Shown piece after piece: positions 1 through 9,402 of a stretch of 64,000 nt of DNA. Under the pieces are notes generated by a model. That model saw nothing but the letters and a program-made list of their open reading frames with translations. It had not been told where the DNA came from and searched no databases. The position numbers and the translations under genes were made by a program. This DNA is from an uncultured Collinsella sp. (GTDB taxonomy: Bacteria > Actinomycetota > Coriobacteriia > Coriobacteriales > Coriobacteriaceae). Where the stretch lies: positions 47,611 to 111,610 of the forward strand of contig CAUEQD010000006.1 in assembly GCA_959019945.1 (NCBI GenBank), in the 5' to 3' direction. Numbering within the stretch: the first letter of the stretch is position 1; each line of letters starts with the position of its first letter.

Positions 1-2
1 AG

Positions 3-836
3 GAGCAGCTGCAGTTCATTAATGTCATCCGTCAGATTGATTTTGCCAAGATCGAAAAGCCAAGTTCCCTCTGCATTTATTCCGCAGCAGGGTGCAAGAT
101 GGCAGTTTGGGGAAATAACGAAGTCTCGGCCGCAGTCGGAACAGTGTGACGCTAAGAGACGTGCCTGCGGTCGCGCATTTTGGTTGAGACTGAGATTTCG
201 TGCGCGCCCAATTCGCGTGATGCCTGAATCCGTGATGAAGCGGGCTGGCGCGCTGGGAGGCTGGGTATTATCGTCGAACTGATGCAGGAGTGGAATGTCT
301 TCATTAAGGTACTTGCACAGGTATGCCGGGCTGATTGTACTGTTGTTATCTCTGCAGACCGCAATGCCGAGAGTTTGAAAGCCCATTGTTTTTGCTGAGT
401 TCCAAAGGTTGCGCACATTCTCGAGGGGTATATATTCCGCATGAAAGTCGTCGCAGCTGATATTGATTTCGTCAAGGCCACATGACTTCAATTCGTTGAG
501 GAACGTTTCTGCGTCTCTTTCGCTTTTTGCCCACCACGCATTCGTTACAATTCGAGTAAAGAGTCCTAAAGAATTCGCATATGCGATGGCCTCGAGAAGG
601 TCATCGCCAAGAAGGGTGCATTCTCCGCCCGTAAACACAACAACACCACTTCCGACGCATACTTCGGCGAAGCTATCGATGAATTGCCGCATTTGGGGAA
701 GAGTAAGCCTGTCACTGTTGTTCGGAGTGCAGCTCATCAGACAATGATCACACACAGCGCCACATTTATATGTTAGGATAAATGTCAGCATTCGAGGTCT
801 GCGGAACAGCACGTGCTGCGAGCTTTCGGAAATCAT
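3..836 (-). CDS. Radical SAM enzyme with C-terminal SPASM/twitch-like Cys cluster (partial, 3' end outside window)
   Basis: The minus-strand frame is open from ATG 836 to the window edge, so it is absent from the ORF track; I checked triplet by triplet and found no stops. The ATG overlaps the upstream stop as ATGA (836-833). Motifs: YKCGAVCDHC (CxxxCxxC), GGECTLL, ISCDDFH, and a late HCSDCGRDFVISPNCHLAPCCG cluster. Confidence 0.8.
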   Translation of the reverse strand, partial: MISESSQHVLFRRPRMLTFILTYKCGAVCDHCLMSCTPNNSDRLTLPQMRQFIDSFAEVCVGSGVVVFTGGECTLLGDDLLEAIAYANSLGLFTRIVTNAWWAKSERDAETFLNELKSCGLDEINISCDDFHAEYIPLENVRNLWNSAKTMGFQTLGIAVCRDNNSTISPAYLCKYLNEDIPLLHQFDDNTQPPSAPARFITDSGITRIGRARNLSLNQNARPQARLLASHCSDCGRDFVISPNCHLAPCCGINAEGTWLFDLGKINLTDDINELQLL

Positions 837-1558
837 GCCGCGAGCAAACGGGCGTCGGTGATTACCAAGGTGCCTTCGTTCTCGGAGTAAGTAACTTCGA
901 ATTCGACGGAGCGATAATACCCGCGGGCGACCCCATTGGAAGCCCCTTCGGGGTTGATGGTATTGGAGCTGGAATTCTTGATTGCTGTTTTAAGCATGGC
1001 TGCTTGCCTCGCTGCACTCAAGCCCTCTTGATCAAATTTCCTGAAAACAGAAGTTTGTTTGTACGATTCCGATAGTTCAACAACATCAGGTTTGTTCATA
1101 AAAATAGCCGATCCATAGCCCATTGTGTTGACGTCGTACTTAAGGTTGGCGTTGTTTTGAGCATTCGCGTTTGCGTTTGCCATTCCGTTTGCGTTCAGAA
1201 TGATGTTTGCGTTCGTTACTGCGTTTGCATTAAGTACAACGTTTACGAGAGGTATCGTTTGCGGCTCAGCTTCGTTGTCCTCGTCATAATATGCAAGTTG
1301 GATACGACGATATACTGCGCGTGCAACGGGGACACGCGCCTCCTTTTCGGTTGACTCCACCAGTTCGTACAGAGAGACTTTTCGATTTCCCGCTTTGATT
1401 TGGAGGTCTGTAATTCCATATTTCTGGAATACGGCACGAGGCTGAGCTTCGAAATCGCGTCTTGCGTCGGTAGATTGTTCCGCGTCCGCGACCAGTTTTT
1501 CAAGGATGCTAAGCTGGGACTGTATTGAGAGTTCGTTTAGGTGGTTCACATTGTCCAT
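833..1558 (-). CDS. 241-aa protein: Nif11/NHLP-like N-terminal leader-like domain, Asn/Ala-repeat core, unknown C-terminal domain; candidate radical-SAM substrate
   Basis: GGAGGT sits 7 nt upstream of ATG 1558; the track start at 1573 is a TTG inside the SD. The N-terminus LSILEKLVADAEQ...AVFQKYGITDLQ resembles Nif11/NHLP leaders. The core is VNVVLNANAVTNANIILNANGMANANANAQNNANL. There is no Cys. The stop overlaps the start of the downstream rSAM gene. Confidence 0.7.
   Translation of the reverse strand: MDNVNHLNELSIQSQLSILEKLVADAEQSTDARRDFEAQPRAVFQKYGITDLQIKAGNRKVSLYELVESTEKEARVPVARAVYRRIQLAYYDEDNEAEPQTIPLVNVVLNANAVTNANIILNANGMANANANAQNNANLKYDVNTMGYGSAIFMNKPDVVELSESYKQTSVFRKFDQEGLSAARQAAMLKTAIKNSSSNTINPEGASNGVARGYYRSVEFEVTYSENEGTLVITDARLLAA
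1142..1258 (-). repeat. Imperfect hexamer repeat (GTTTGC/GTTnnn on plus strand) encoding the Asn-Ala repeat core
   Basis: GTTTGC occurs at 1169, 1175, 1187, 1205 and 1223, with related GTTGGC, GTTCAG and GTTTAC. On the minus strand this reads AAC-GCx repeated. Confidence 0.6.
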
Positions 1559-1679
1559 AGCGGTGACCTCCAATGTTGAATAGCTGTCTTGAAAGACTAC
1601 GTCATGCTAGTGTCGGTATCGATTTGATACTACGAACAAATTAGAACTAAATGGATATAGTTTCCATACTAATCAAAAC

Positions 1680-8320: not shown

Positions 8321-9006
8321 TGGGAAACGCTTAGAGTTCGGGCTTGCGCGTCATGGAGTAATCTTTCCTCTTATCGAAAATCGTTACAATATAAGAAAAA
8401 CAGTAAGCAAGAAGAAATGGCTCGGGAAAGAGCTCGCTGCTGTCAGTGATATTGGGTCTATATCCAGATAACACGGAAGGGGCCGTCCTCTACAACGGGG
8501 TATCACAGCGTCGCATCGACCGATACGCATTGCGGCGGTGCCGAGTTGGCATTACGGAGCAAGAGCCCCCTATTGTTGGGGGGACGATCCTCGATAATCT
8601 TACGCTGCTTTCTGATGATTTCGAGGCCGACAAACTGAATCGGATGCTTGCCATATTGGGGTTAGACAAAATGATTGCCGCTGCGGAGAACGGGGCGGCA
8701 GCGATGCTTGGCAGCAAGAAAGGAGGGGTGTCCGGCGGGGAGAAGCAGAACATCGCAATTGTGCGGCAGATGTTGAAATCGCCGGACGTCATGTTGTTTC
8801 TTGAGTCAACTTCAGCGCTTGATGCGAAGAGCCGGAGCGCGCTAATTAAATTGCTTCATGAGGTTAAGAGAGACCATATTGTAATTGTTGTCACTCATGA
8901 CGAAGAGATGCTTGCGGCTTGCGACGAGGTCATTCCGATGCCCGGATGCTTATCGGGACGTGGCGTTGAAGGCCCAGAAGATCGAAATGGCGTGGGTGTT
9001 GGGTAA
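8307..9006 (+). pseudogene. ABC ATPase (NBD only), frameshifted or 5'-truncated, with a degenerate Walker B
   Basis: ATG 8307 opens a 54-codon frame that ends at 8471. Walker A NGSGKSSLL and the rest of the NBD are in the +1 frame, open only from 8407. The frames switch within an A-rich run at 8391-8417. Walker B reads MLFLESTSALD, lacking the Asp. Confidence 0.6.
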
Positions 9007-9326
9007 GTCCCTACGCGTACGACGTTGGGTTTCTGATCTTCATCGTCCTGCAAAGAAGGCTTTGTAACACGTTTCCCCTGGGAGGCCCCTTTTGTCCGTA
9101 GTGGCAAAGAGGAGCTTTTTCGTTTCCCTCTTGCGGCGGAGGGGGACACCATGCGCCTATACAGGACGACCTGCGCGCTTTCGTCGGATGACGGGCTATG
9201 TGTCGAGATGGGGGTCTCGGGTGGAGGCCGCGTCGCGGTCGCGGTCGGCCAGCGACCATCGGTACGGCTCAATCGTATTACCAGAACTAGTAAGGAGCCG
9301 CCCTTTCGGACGACTCAAACTGTAAT

Positions 9327-9402
9327 GGGGCTTTTTTAGCTACCCCGGCCGTTACTCCGCCAAAGCATTCGCGCTATCTGCCGGGGTGGCTAAAATAGCC
9401 CC
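9327..9402. repeat. Long inverted repeat (23-position stem, 30-nt loop) at the island/backbone border
   Basis: GGGGCTTTTTTAGCTACCCCGGC pairs with GCCGGGGTGGCTAAAATAGCCCC: 21 Watson-Crick pairs, 1 G-T pair and 1 mismatch, counted by hand. Confidence 0.6.

What the first reader, a model, noticed from the sequence alone, without database searches (positions are those of the whole stretch)
1..9402. AT-richer island combining two rSAM modules with immunity-type membrane proteins and ABC export genes, but no regulator, protease or integrase in view
Seen: the sequence left of about 9.4 kb is visibly AT-richer than the backbone and uses different codons. It contains two rSAM/candidate-substrate pairs. 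Their hydrophobic cores both begin Pro-(V/L)-V-x-V (TIPLVNVV and GPVPVVVN). It also has a DUF1648/SdpI-like membrane protein (1757-2383), a DUF3784-like membrane protein (6260-6619), an ABC half-transporter without a C39 peptidase domain (6704-8320), and a decayed ABC ATPase. Established knowledge: SdpI-type proteins and dedicated ABC exporters commonly provide self-protection or export in antimicrobial peptide loci. Inference: this is a horizontally acquired antimicrobial-peptide-like island whose product class is not obvious.
Basis: partly seen in the sequence, partly recalled or inferred. Interest (0 to 1): 0.65.

Follow-up and report, generated by a model that had tools for sequence, protein, structure and literature searches.

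The report
Two modified-peptide gene sets, gut Collinsella
The AT-richer left end of the window is most of an 11-kb mobile island of the gut bacterium Collinsella aerofaciens. It holds two gene sets for modified peptides, and one set looks like the machinery for the sponge toxin polytheonamide, built from a different enzyme family and an unusual three-part precursor.

Summary
Window 1-9325 has GC 0.52 and GC3 0.45-0.66, against 0.61 and about 0.8 for the backbone. It is an accessory island of the Collinsella aerofaciens complex, inserted between the PPDK-regulator gene and ppdK. 71 of 73 informative metagenome loci with 96-99% identical flanks lack it. The same island occurs in a second chromosomal context, and part of it sits on an ICE-like element.

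It consists of two separable peptide-modification (RiPP) modules.

Module A lies at <1-2383 and continues about 2 kb beyond the left edge. It has a 241-aa precursor: a folded N-domain, a 44-aa core with Asn ladders of period 6, and a folded DUF5969 C-domain. It also has a YydG/EpeE-type radical SAM epimerase homologue, a methyltransferase whose best sequence and fold match is AerE (the aeronamide D-Asn N-methyltransferase) with its catalytic Tyr/Asp/Asn conserved, and a DUF1648 membrane protein. I read it as a polytheonamide-like D/L-alternating peptide pathway that uses the 'wrong' epimerase family.

Module B lies at 3955-8320. It has a PqqD protein, a single-cluster radical SAM enzyme, a 60-aa Cys-free hydrophobic peptide, a small membrane protein and an ABC exporter. 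This cluster type is conserved in Firmicutes and its chemistry is unknown; epimerisation is a guess.

Nothing was tested biochemically. I found no paper describing it.

The parts
1..836 (-). rSAM-1, a YydG/EpeE-type radical SAM enzyme and putative peptide epimerase. The first 278 of 359 codons are in the window; the gene runs off the left edge.
   Evidence: A CxxxCxxC motif is present. The best NCBIfam match is TIGR04078 YydG epimerase, at 94-96 bits against a cutoff of 300. The only significant PDB hits are YydG 8AI1-6, with E 1e-13 for the single sequence and 2e-19 for the family profile. The 'PCCG' motif aligns to YydG 'PCCS' (H-donor Cys223), and C232 and C313/C316 align to YydG Cys that I infer bind its auxiliary cluster.
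833..1558 (-). 241-aa three-part precursor (an alternative TTG start at 1573 gives 246 aa). Leader domain is aa 1-100 (nt 1259-1558). Asn-ladder core is aa 101-144 (nt 1127-1258). DUF5969 C-domain is aa 155-241 (nt 836-1096).
   Evidence: Pfam DUF5969 scores 32.9 bits against a cutoff of 25. In the AF2 model both end domains have pLDDT >90 and residues 97-153 have pLDDT <50. Core Asn lie at positions 10/16/22/28 and 12/18/24/30/36.
1757..2383 (+). DUF1648 membrane protein, a candidate self-protection (immunity) protein. It is divergently transcribed from the precursor.
   Evidence: PF07853 scores 47.8 bits. It is linked to module A relatives in L009, L011 and L074, and SdpI or DUF1648 genes accompany module B relatives in L015, L017 and L018. 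It is retained beside truncated precursors on an ICE-like element (L020).
2600..3700 (+). GC-rich joint between the two modules, with ORF 2884-3372 of unknown function.
   Evidence: GC is 0.64 and ORF GC3 is 0.835. No family was found. IS elements are inserted here in L002 and L008. It travels with the DUF1648 gene in L007 and L020.
3955..4137 (-). 60-aa Cys-free hydrophobic precursor peptide of module B.
   Evidence: It lies immediately downstream of rSAM-2. The position and the N-terminal motif MYE.PEVEKM are shared with L015, and analogous peptides occur in L017, L018 and L093.
4150..5196 (-). rSAM-2, a single-cluster radical SAM enzyme of an uncharacterised family.
   Evidence: PF04055 scores 64 bits. 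The only invariant Cys are C21/C25/C28 and C63/C65, with no SPASM or twitch Cys. The nearest solved structure is SkfB, core only. There are 457 relatives at E<=1e-10.
5196..6089 (-). PqqD-domain (RiPP recognition element) protein, 297 aa, with an unassigned C-terminal domain.
   Evidence: PF05402 scores 34.6 bits. It is conserved upstream of rSAM-2 relatives.
6221..6619 (+). Small membrane protein, DUF3784-like but below threshold.
   Evidence: It scores 24.4 bits against a cutoff of 28.1. A similar 106-aa protein (23.5 bits) sits in the third Collinsella cluster type, L093.
6701..8320 (+). ABC half-transporter (membrane domain plus ATPase) without a peptidase domain; the likely exporter.
   Evidence: An ABC gene is conserved next to rSAM-2 relatives.
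8446..9006 (+). Remnant of a second ABC ATPase (pseudogene).
   Evidence: It matches only the C-terminal part of the ATPase domain. The Walker A remnant is out of frame and Walker B is degenerate. Other copies of the island diverge from the window after 8768.
9326..9420 (.). Right part of a roughly 110-bp MITE-like palindromic element into which the island is inserted. The island's right junction is 9325|9326.
   Evidence: A 24-nt inverted repeat lies at both island ends. The intact element is seen in empty sites such as L111.

Best explanation
Window 1-9325 is the larger part of an accessory island of about 11.3 kb in the Collinsella aerofaciens complex. The island is inserted into a small palindromic element in the spacer between the PPDK-regulator gene and ppdK. 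It carries two independent gene sets for ribosomally made, enzyme-modified peptides (RiPPs).

Module A (inferred mechanism). The 241-aa precursor is held by its two folded end domains. The YydG/EpeE-type radical SAM enzyme inverts every second residue of the 44-aa core, including the Asn residues. The AerE-type methyltransferase, encoded just outside the window, then methylates the side-chain amides of the D-Asn residues. After release of the core by a protease not encoded in the island, the D/L-alternating peptide would fold into a beta-6.3 helix with Asn ladders, as polytheonamide and aeronamide do, and act on membranes. The DUF1648 protein would protect the producer.

Module B (inferred mechanism). 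The PqqD protein binds the leader of the 60-aa peptide. The single-cluster radical SAM enzyme modifies its Cys-free Val/Ala-rich core; the reaction is unknown and epimerisation is my best guess. The ABC transporter exports the product, and the small membrane protein and/or the DUF1648 protein give protection.

Shown here: the homologies, conserved catalytic residues, sequence periodicity, gene linkage across taxa, presence/absence and mobility. Inferred: all chemistry, cleavage, export, activity and immunity.
For: Methyltransferase:
- Its best PDB sequence hit is AerE 7RC2 (E 2e-6). AerE's essential Y137, D141 and N231 (PMC9060474) align to Y124, D128 and N217.
- These residues are invariant in 39 relatives.
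- The model (pLDDT 91) has AerE as its top five fold hits, with TM 0.71-0.75 over the full length.
- A relative sits in a canonical NHLP + PoyD proteusin cluster, L019.

Epimerase: YydG is the only significant solved relative, and the H-donor Cys and the Cys that align with YydG's C-terminal (presumed auxiliary-cluster) Cys are conserved.

Core:
- In 31 family members, 339 core Asn share one parity and 16 do not. Outside the cores the split is 131 to 76.
- Asn-Asn spacing peaks at 6 and 12.
- The Bifidobacterium relative has Asn at exactly i+6 five times, plus gramicidin-like Trp alternation.

Linkage:
- Precursor + YydG-like rSAM + AerE-like MT occur together in four further contexts (L009, L011, L013, L074). 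DUF1648 accompanies L009, L011 and L074; SdpI and an ABC exporter accompany L013; an ABC ATPase accompanies L011 and L074.
- In an environmental contig the same trio also has a B12 radical SAM C-methyltransferase, TIGR03975 at 440 bits.

Module B: its gene order is conserved in Paenibacillus, Clostridium felsineum and an unnamed metagenome contig (L015). A homologous rSAM (32% identity, E 3e-48) plus a related peptide is coupled to an AerE-like MT in other Collinsella.

Island status.
Against: - No biochemical or expression evidence exists. The two sequencing runs found were uninformative.
- rSAM-1 is far below the YydG family cutoff (96 versus 300 bits). Known EpeE makes only two epimerisations, not about twenty.
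- The methyltransferase is only 18-20% identical to AerE over the structural alignment, so a requirement for D-Asn is assumed, not shown.
- The island encodes no protease and no regulator.
- A core sandwiched between two folded domains is not how known RiPP precursors look.
- The N-domain's link to NHLP leaders is weak (7 of 31 members; hhalign probability 26%).
- Many strains carry frameshifted or deleted versions of module A.
- The window's own rSAM-1 has a private T21L change at a family-invariant position.
- For module B, nothing indicates the reaction type directly.
Confidence: 0.62

Rival explanations
1. The 241-aa protein is not a cleaved precursor. It is a mature protein whose Asn/Ala hexad repeat is an ordinary L-amino-acid linker or short hexapeptide-repeat beta-solenoid. 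Alternatively it is modified in place and works as a whole protein. The neighbouring radical SAM enzyme and methyltransferase would then act on it, or on something else, without releasing a peptide.
For: Both end domains are confidently folded. The island encodes no protease. Single family members weakly hit hexapeptide-repeat proteins such as PaaY, LpxD and gamma carbonic anhydrase (E 0.017-0.05). No known RiPP precursor has this architecture.
Against: AF2 gives no confident fold for the repeat (pLDDT <50). The strict single-parity placement of Asn and the constant linkage to an epimerase homologue and a D-Asn methyltransferase homologue fit D/L alternation better. A conserved (T/G)(I/V)P motif precedes the core, like a cleavage or core-start site. 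A hydrolase and an M23 peptidase follow the cluster in L182.
Confidence: 0.15
2. The island is a decaying relic that makes no active product in this strain.
For: - An ABC ATPase pseudogene lies at 8446-9006.
- The window's rSAM-1 has a private T21L change.
- Frameshifted 194-aa precursor variants and 162/196-aa deletion variants are common.
- L021 and L023 have internal deletions of the PqqD and rSAM-2 genes.
- No regulator is present.
Against: In the window all the other genes are intact. The intact proteins are very abundant in gut metagenomes: the exact rSAM-2 sequence occurs in 4319 collection blocks, and the 90% clusters hold 878-1604 member sequences. The island is 97-99% conserved across at least 53 species-level Collinsella genomes. 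This argues for purifying selection.
Confidence: 0.15
3. Module B's radical SAM enzyme installs a cross-link or other side-chain modification on the aromatic or aliphatic residues of the 60-aa peptide, not an epimerisation.
For: Its nearest solved relatives are cross-linking or cofactor enzymes (SkfB, CteB, PqqE). The peptides contain Trp/Tyr clusters. Most PqqD-dependent radical SAM RiPP enzymes known to me make cross-links (own knowledge).
Against: The family lacks every auxiliary-cluster Cys that those cross-linking enzymes have. The peptides have no Cys. A homologue is the only radical SAM enzyme in a Collinsella cluster that also has an AerE-like methyltransferase, and AerE itself acts only on D-Asn (PMC9060474).
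Confidence: 0.35

Closest known systems
Channel-forming proteusins: polytheonamides (Poy) and aeronamide (Aer)
   Same: - An AerE/PoyE-type Asn side-chain N-methyltransferase, matched by sequence, fold and catalytic residues.
- A core with Asn only at alternate positions and in i/i+6 ladders.
- A long structured leader of about 100 aa, with a weak NHLP-clan signal.
- An environmental relative that also has a PoyB/C-type B12 radical SAM C-methyltransferase.
   Different: - The epimerase homologue is YydG/EpeE-type with presumed two clusters, not PoyD-type (TIGR04517).
- The precursor carries a folded C-terminal DUF5969 domain after the core.
- The host is a human-gut actinobacterium.
- The Collinsella cluster has no C-methyltransferase, dehydratase or protease.
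Epipeptides (B. subtilis epeXEPAB / yydFGHIJ)
   Same: The radical SAM enzyme's only significant solved relative is YydG/EpeE. The H-donor Cys and the C-terminal Cys that align with YydG's are conserved. The setting is a Gram-positive host with an ABC transporter nearby.
   Different: The score is far below the family cutoff. The precursor is 241 aa with a 44-aa repetitive core, against 49 aa with two epimerised sites. There is no EpeP-type protease. A methyltransferase is added.
Gramicidin A (non-ribosomal D/L-alternating beta-helix channel)
   Same: Predicted alternating stereochemistry. Val/Ala/Trp-rich sequences occur in the Bifidobacterium relative of module A and in module B peptides.
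   Different: The peptides here are ribosomal, not non-ribosomal. The resemblance is by sequence pattern only.
SdpC/SdpI-type toxin-immunity loci
   Same: A DUF1648 or SdpI-family membrane protein lies next to the peptide genes. An ArsR-type gene plus an SdpI gene lie next to a module B relative (L015).
   Different: The window protein has no detectable SdpI domain. No SdpR-type regulator is in the island. Immunity was not tested.

Membership tests
Proteusins (polytheonamide/aeronamide type) | Precursor with an NHLP or Nif11 leader | tested here: inconclusive
   The window protein has no hit. 7 of 31 family members hit the NHLP-clan model NF038399 (best E 4e-5) and 3 hit TIGR04509. hhalign against an NHLP leader gives probability 26% over 33 columns. 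Foldseek of the AF2 model finds nothing with E <0.08.
Proteusins (polytheonamide/aeronamide type) | PoyD-type radical SAM epimerase (TIGR04517; single cluster, C-terminal RRE) | tested here: not met
   TIGR04517 is not among the listed NCBIfam hits of rSAM-1 (all 23) or rSAM-2 (best 25 of 76). BLASTP of rSAM-2 against a bona fide PoyD-type enzyme (L019, 509 bits to TIGR04517) gives E 4.3.
Proteusins (polytheonamide/aeronamide type) | Core at the C-terminus of the precursor | tested here: not met
   The core (aa 101-144) is followed by a folded DUF5969 domain of about 90 aa.
AerE/PoyE-type D-Asn N-gamma-methyltransferases | Fold including the N-terminal domain, the NPP motif, and catalytic Tyr137/Asp141/Asn231 | tested here: met
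   The gene lies outside the window (L001 15425-16567). Substrate stereospecificity was not tested.
Epipeptides (EpeX/EpeE) | EpeE/YydG-family radical SAM enzyme at the family's curated score | tested here: not met
   TIGR04078 scores 96.5 bits against a cutoff of 300, and only the N-terminal half matches strongly. It is a homologue but not an equivalog.
Epipeptides (EpeX/EpeE) | Short precursor of about 49 aa with two epimerised sites, plus an EpeP protease and EpeAB | tested here: not met
   The precursor is 241 aa and the island has no protease.
Sactipeptides / ranthipeptides (module B) | Cys in the core and a SPASM or twitch auxiliary cluster in the enzyme | tested here: not met
   The 60-aa peptide and its relatives have no Cys. 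The rSAM-2 family has no conserved C-terminal Cys.
RRE-dependent RiPP pathways (module B) | PqqD-like recognition element next to the tailoring enzyme and a short precursor | tested here: met
   PF05402 scores 34.6 bits against a cutoff of 23.4. The gene order is conserved in four contexts.
Peptidase-containing ABC exporters (PCAT) | N-terminal C39 peptidase domain | tested here: not met
   The alignment to NF045998 and TIGR03796 starts at profile position 147-151, and there is no Peptidase_C39 hit.
SdpI-type immunity proteins | SdpI domain (PF13630); protection of the producer | tested here: inconclusive
   Only DUF1648 is detected in the window protein. True SdpI-domain genes accompany relatives L013 and L015. 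Protection cannot be tested with these tools.
Genomic island / integrative element | Compositional deviation, empty sites in close relatives, integrase or tRNA or direct repeats at the borders | tested here: inconclusive
   Deviation and empty sites are met. No integrase, tRNA or direct repeats were found. The island interrupts a MITE-like palindrome without a clear target duplication.

The most novel reading that the evidence does not exclude
Collinsella aerofaciens, some bifidobacteria and various uncultured bacteria make polytheonamide-like peptides with D/L alternation and N-methyl-D-Asn ladders that form beta-helical channels. They make them from a new precursor type in which the core is clamped between two folded domains. 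An EpeE-type enzyme, known so far for two epimerisations, performs about twenty alternate ones. The single-cluster rSAM-2 family would be a third, unrecognised family of peptide epimerases that make gramicidin-like ribosomal peptides.
Probability: 0.3. Interest if true: 0.85.

Novelty: new variant of a known kind. Interest (0 to 1): 0.72.

Why it matters
Polytheonamide-type channel peptides are known from sponge symbionts and a few proteobacteria, and always with PoyD-type epimerases and NHLP precursors. A parallel pathway built on the EpeE-type epimerase and a domain-core-domain precursor would show three things. The same end chemistry was assembled twice from different parts. EpeE-type enzymes may do more than is known of them. 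And membrane-active D-amino-acid peptides would be placed in one of the most prevalent human gut actinobacteria, as a strain-variable trait that could shape competition in the gut.

All the genes are currently annotated only as 'hypothetical', 'DUF5969', 'methyltransferase' or 'radical SAM protein'. Seven full-text searches found no paper on them.

Tried and rejected
- Exact-sequence look-ups of the 246-aa ORF and of PPDK found nothing, because of start-codon or allele differences.
- RNA evidence: only two runs of uncertain type hold the region, and their contigs say nothing about transcription.
- Fold search of the precursor model against the PDB gave no match with E <0.08, only a weak RelE/MqsR-like resemblance of the C-domain. 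I give that no weight.
- I tested whether rSAM-2 is PoyD-like. It is not.
- I first read the 24-nt inverted repeats at the island ends as transposon ends. I rejected this: they are the two halves of a pre-existing palindromic element of about 110 bp that is intact in empty sites.
- A metagenome scan for that palindrome with a loop of 30 nt or less found nothing, because the real loop is longer.
The two substrates are unrelated, and the motif is not conserved among module B peptides.
- No Rfam family or tRNA lies in 1-13500.
- Promoter and terminator scans were at or below chance level.
- Cluster-member look-up gave no organism names for distant precursor relatives.
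Full report
**Observation**

The left 9.4 kb of the window is compositionally distinct.
- GC is 0.521 for 1-9400, against 0.609 for the rest of the window.
- GC3 of the island genes is 0.45-0.66, against 0.835 for the adjacent ppdK.
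- A GC-rich patch at about 2600-3700 interrupts it. Its ORF (2884-3372) has a backbone-like GC3 of 0.835.

- rSAM-1, cut by the window edge, starting at 836 on the minus strand. It is ATGA-coupled to a 241-aa ORF (833-1558).
- A DUF1648 membrane protein (1757-2383).
- A 60-aa ORF (3955-4137) just downstream of rSAM-2 (4150-5196).
- A PqqD-domain protein (5196-6089).
- A small membrane protein that is DUF3784-like but below threshold (6221-6619).
- An ABC half-transporter with no peptidase domain (6701-8320).
- The C-terminal remnant of a second ABC ATPase (8446-9006).

There is no regulator, protease, integrase, tRNA or Rfam RNA in the region.

**Organism and public annotation**

The region is 99.7% identical to Collinsella aerofaciens TSDC17.2-1.1 (NZ_OY725717.1). 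RefSeq annotates these genes only as methyltransferase, hypothetical, DUF5969 family, DUF1648, radical SAM, PqqD family and ABC. The proteins are very common in gut metagenomes. The exact rSAM-2 sequence is indexed in 4319 blocks of the collection.

**Island status and borders**

Longer contigs show the full unit: ppdK | ABC remnant | ABC | small membrane protein | PqqD protein | rSAM-2 | 60-aa peptide | GC-rich ORF | DUF1648 | precursor | rSAM-1 (359 aa) | methyltransferase (380 aa) | PPDK-regulator gene. The island therefore continues about 2 kb beyond the window's left edge.

A metagenome scan with the PPDK-regulator protein returned 80 loci at 96-99% identity.
- 71 have ppdK directly downstream, which is the empty site.
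- 2 carry the island, and 1 more probably does.
- 7 are too short to tell.

The island ends carry a 24-nt inverted repeat. Empty sites show that these repeats are the two halves of a MITE-like palindrome of about 110 bp. The palindrome is intact in some strains (for example L111) and absent in others. The island sits inside it. The right junction is at window 9325|9326, and I see no clear target duplication.

The whole island also occurs at 97-98% identity in a different chromosomal context, with PepD-like, PIN, ClpC and ThrE-like ORFs (my reading of the translations) downstream of the methyltransferase. Window 1703-8768 occurs at 98-99% identity on an element with integrase, RepB and NikA genes (L007). 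A DUF1648 gene plus a truncated precursor sits on an element with integrase, MobL and TraG genes (L020). Horizontal mobility is therefore well supported, but the mechanism of movement is not identified.

**Module A**

*Methyltransferase.* The gene lies outside the window, at L001 15425-16567.
- It resembles HemK/PrmC-type amide N-methyltransferases.
- Its best PDB sequence hit is AerE, the aeronamide D-Asn N-gamma-methyltransferase (7RC2, E 2e-6).
- AerE's essential Tyr137, Asp141 and Asn231 (PMC9060474) align to Tyr124, Asp128 and Asn217.
- These residues and the NPP motif are invariant in 39 relatives.
- An AF2 model (pLDDT 91, pTM 0.90) has the five AerE entries as its top fold matches, with TM 0.71-0.75 over the full length. 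GenN comes next at 0.58.
- One relative (P0098) lies in a textbook proteusin cluster of Thiorhodococcus, with two NHLP precursors and a PoyD-type epimerase (TIGR04517, 509 bits).

*rSAM-1.* Its only significant solved relative is YydG/EpeE (E 1e-13 for the single sequence, 2e-19 with a four-sequence profile).
- The profile alignment pairs the invariant 'PCCG' with YydG 'PCCS'. By my numbering the second Cys of that motif is the H-atom donor Cys223 described in PMC13012085.
- It also pairs C232 and C313/C316 with YydG's C-terminal Cys, which I infer are its auxiliary-cluster ligands. This C-terminal part of the alignment is not significant on its own (7.1 bits, E 19).
- The protein is nevertheless far below the curated YydG cutoff (96 versus 300 bits). 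It is a homologue, not an equivalog.

*Precursor family.* An exhaustive HMMER search of 1.84 billion representatives finds only 51 hits. Thirty-one full-length members align with three parts: an N-domain of about 100 aa, an Asn/Ala-rich core, and a C-domain of about 90 aa. The C-domain is Pfam DUF5969 in 28 of 31 members.
- AF2 predicts both end domains with pLDDT >90 and the core with pLDDT <50.
- In the cores, 339 Asn share one parity and 16 do not. Outside the cores the split is 131 to 76.
- Asn-Asn spacings are almost all even and peak at 6 and 12.
- In the window protein, Asn occupy core positions 10/16/22/28 and 12/18/24/30/36. In aeronamide, D-Asn 25/31/37/43 form such a ladder on one face of the beta-helix (PMC9060474).
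- The Bifidobacterium relative reads WAWANTWAWANVWVAVNGAIAANAGVAVNATIVG, with Asn at exactly i+6 five times.
- The N-domain has only a weak NHLP-clan signal.

*Linkage.* The trio of precursor, YydG-like rSAM and AerE-like MT recurs in other contexts:
- another metagenomic contig, taxon not named (L009; MT 61% identical), with DUF1648;
- an uncultured Bifidobacterium (L013), with an ABC exporter and a true SdpI-domain gene;
- further Coriobacteriaceae (L011, L074).

An environmental contig (L182) adds a B12 radical SAM C-methyltransferase of the PoyB/C kind (TIGR03975, 440 bits) and hydrolase/peptidase genes. Its YydG-like enzyme is 36% identical to rSAM-1 over the full length.

*Reading.* The enzyme set is that of polytheonamide-type peptides, except that the epimerase comes from the epipeptide lineage. 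The literature treats the two epimerase families as unrelated: PoyD-type has a single cluster with a C-terminal RRE, and EpeE-type has two clusters (PMC8326336). I therefore infer alternate-residue epimerisation, D-Asn N-methylation, release of the core, and a membrane-active beta-helical product.

**Module B**

rSAM-2 belongs to a large uncharacterised family, with 457 relatives at E<=1e-10.
- Its only invariant Cys are the CxxxCxxC triad and a CxC next to the GGE motif. It has no SPASM or twitch Cys.
- Solved relatives match only the core; SkfB is the best.
- It has no similarity to PoyD-type enzymes.

The gene order ABC | PqqD-protein | rSAM | 47-62-aa peptide | SdpI or DUF1648 is conserved in an unnamed metagenome contig (L015, which also has an ArsR-type regulator), in Paenibacillus and in Clostridium felsineum. 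The peptides share a short N-terminal leader motif (MYE.PEVEKM in the window and L015) and Cys-free cores rich in Val, Ala, Trp and Tyr.

Other Collinsella genomes (L075-L100) carry a third cluster type. It contains:
- an rSAM-2 homologue (32% identity, E 3e-48);
- a PqqD protein;
- a 66-aa peptide sharing the AVYD.VV motif, with Asp/Asn at i+6 spacing;
- a DUF3784-like membrane protein;
- an AerE-like methyltransferase;
- an ABC exporter.

AerE acts only on D-Asn, and that cluster has no other radical SAM enzyme. This is indirect support for epimerisation by the rSAM-2 family. It is a guess, and I put it at about one in three.

**Caveats**
- Nothing here is biochemical.
- The island encodes no protease or regulator.
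- Module A is frameshifted or deleted in many strains. Examples are 162-aa leader-only fusions, a 196-aa in-situ deletion from the core to the end of the methyltransferase, and 194-aa frameshift forms.
- L021 and L023 lack the PqqD gene and all or part of rSAM-2.
- The window's rSAM-1 has a private T21L substitution at a position invariant in 60 other loci and in distant relatives.
- Retention of DUF1648 beside truncated precursors on mobile elements looks like the orphan immunity genes of bacteriocin systems. That is an inference.

**Novelty**

Seven full-text searches found no paper on any of the following:
- DUF5969;
- a YydG-type epimerase paired with an AerE/PoyE-type methyltransferase;
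- such peptides in Collinsella or Bifidobacterium.

I rate it a new variant of a known kind. The predicted chemistry is known (epimerisation plus Asn N-methylation giving a beta-helical peptide). The epimerase lineage, the precursor architecture and the habitat are new.

Noticed in passing
window 9326-9420; intact copies e.g. L111 6868-6980, L119, L154: A MITE-like palindromic element of about 110 bp lies just after the PPDK-regulator stop codon. Its terminal inverted repeats are about 37 nt (TAGCTAATTTGGGACGGGGCTTTTTTAGCTACCCC...). Among strains it is absent, intact, half-present, or split by the island. At least four spacer states exist among near-identical flanks.
   Followed up: partly
window 33645-34436 (+), in a low-GC dip at 33-35 kb: A 263-aa ORF with an IS200-like Y1 transposase domain (PF01797, 31 bits), of the kind that mobilises REP-like palindromes. 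Any link to the palindromic element at 9326-9420 was not tested. No second copy of that element's repeat was found in the window.
   Followed up: partly
window about 774-776 (codon 21 of rSAM-1): The window's rSAM-1 reads FILTYKC where 60 other loci read FITTYKC/FITTYRC. The Thr is invariant even in relatives at 35-53% identity. This could be a neutral or an inactivating private change.
   Followed up: partly
L093 5076-10732 (Collinsella sp. i05-0019-G5) and 25 similar loci, L075-L100: A third cluster type in other Collinsella. It has an rSAM-2-like enzyme, a 160-aa ORF, a PqqD protein, an invariant 66-aa hydrophobic peptide, a DUF3784-like membrane protein, an AerE-like methyltransferase and an ABC exporter. 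Some genomes carry both this cluster and the window's island (contigs L064 and L097 come from one MAG).
   Followed up: partly
L182 1460-7151 (JGI metagenome contig): An environmental relative of module A. It adds a B12 radical SAM C-methyltransferase (TIGR03975) and an alpha/beta-hydrolase; on the sister contig, for which only gene calls (no DNA) were returned, an M23 peptidase follows the hydrolase. This is a richer, more polytheonamide-like enzyme set.
   Followed up: partly
window 2884-3372 (+): A GC-rich ORF of unknown function with host-like codon usage lies between the two modules. The patch is an IS insertion hot spot (IS256-like in L002, IS110-like in L008). It co-travels with the DUF1648 gene on ICE-like elements (L007, L020).
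   Followed up: partly
NZ_OY725717.1 (L181): This RefSeq record is labelled 'plasmid 6' but is 899,693 bp and carries glyS, ppdK, rplS and the RNase HII gene. It looks like a chromosome piece. PGAP also starts rSAM-1 33 codons late, which removes the CxxxCxxC motif, and calls it 'hypothetical protein'. It calls the 60-aa peptide as 51 aa.
   Followed up: no
alignment A1 (precursor family): Two of 31 members weakly hit the SdpC toxin family (TIGR04032, E 0.0075) and five hit the IniB N-terminal model (E 0.014). These are probably compositional matches and were not examined.
   Followed up: no
L021 and L023 versus window 3263/4974-6242/6557: Some Collinsella genomes carry the island with internal deletions that remove the PqqD gene and all or part of rSAM-2. 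They also diverge from the window after position 8768, inside the ABC remnant.
   Followed up: partly
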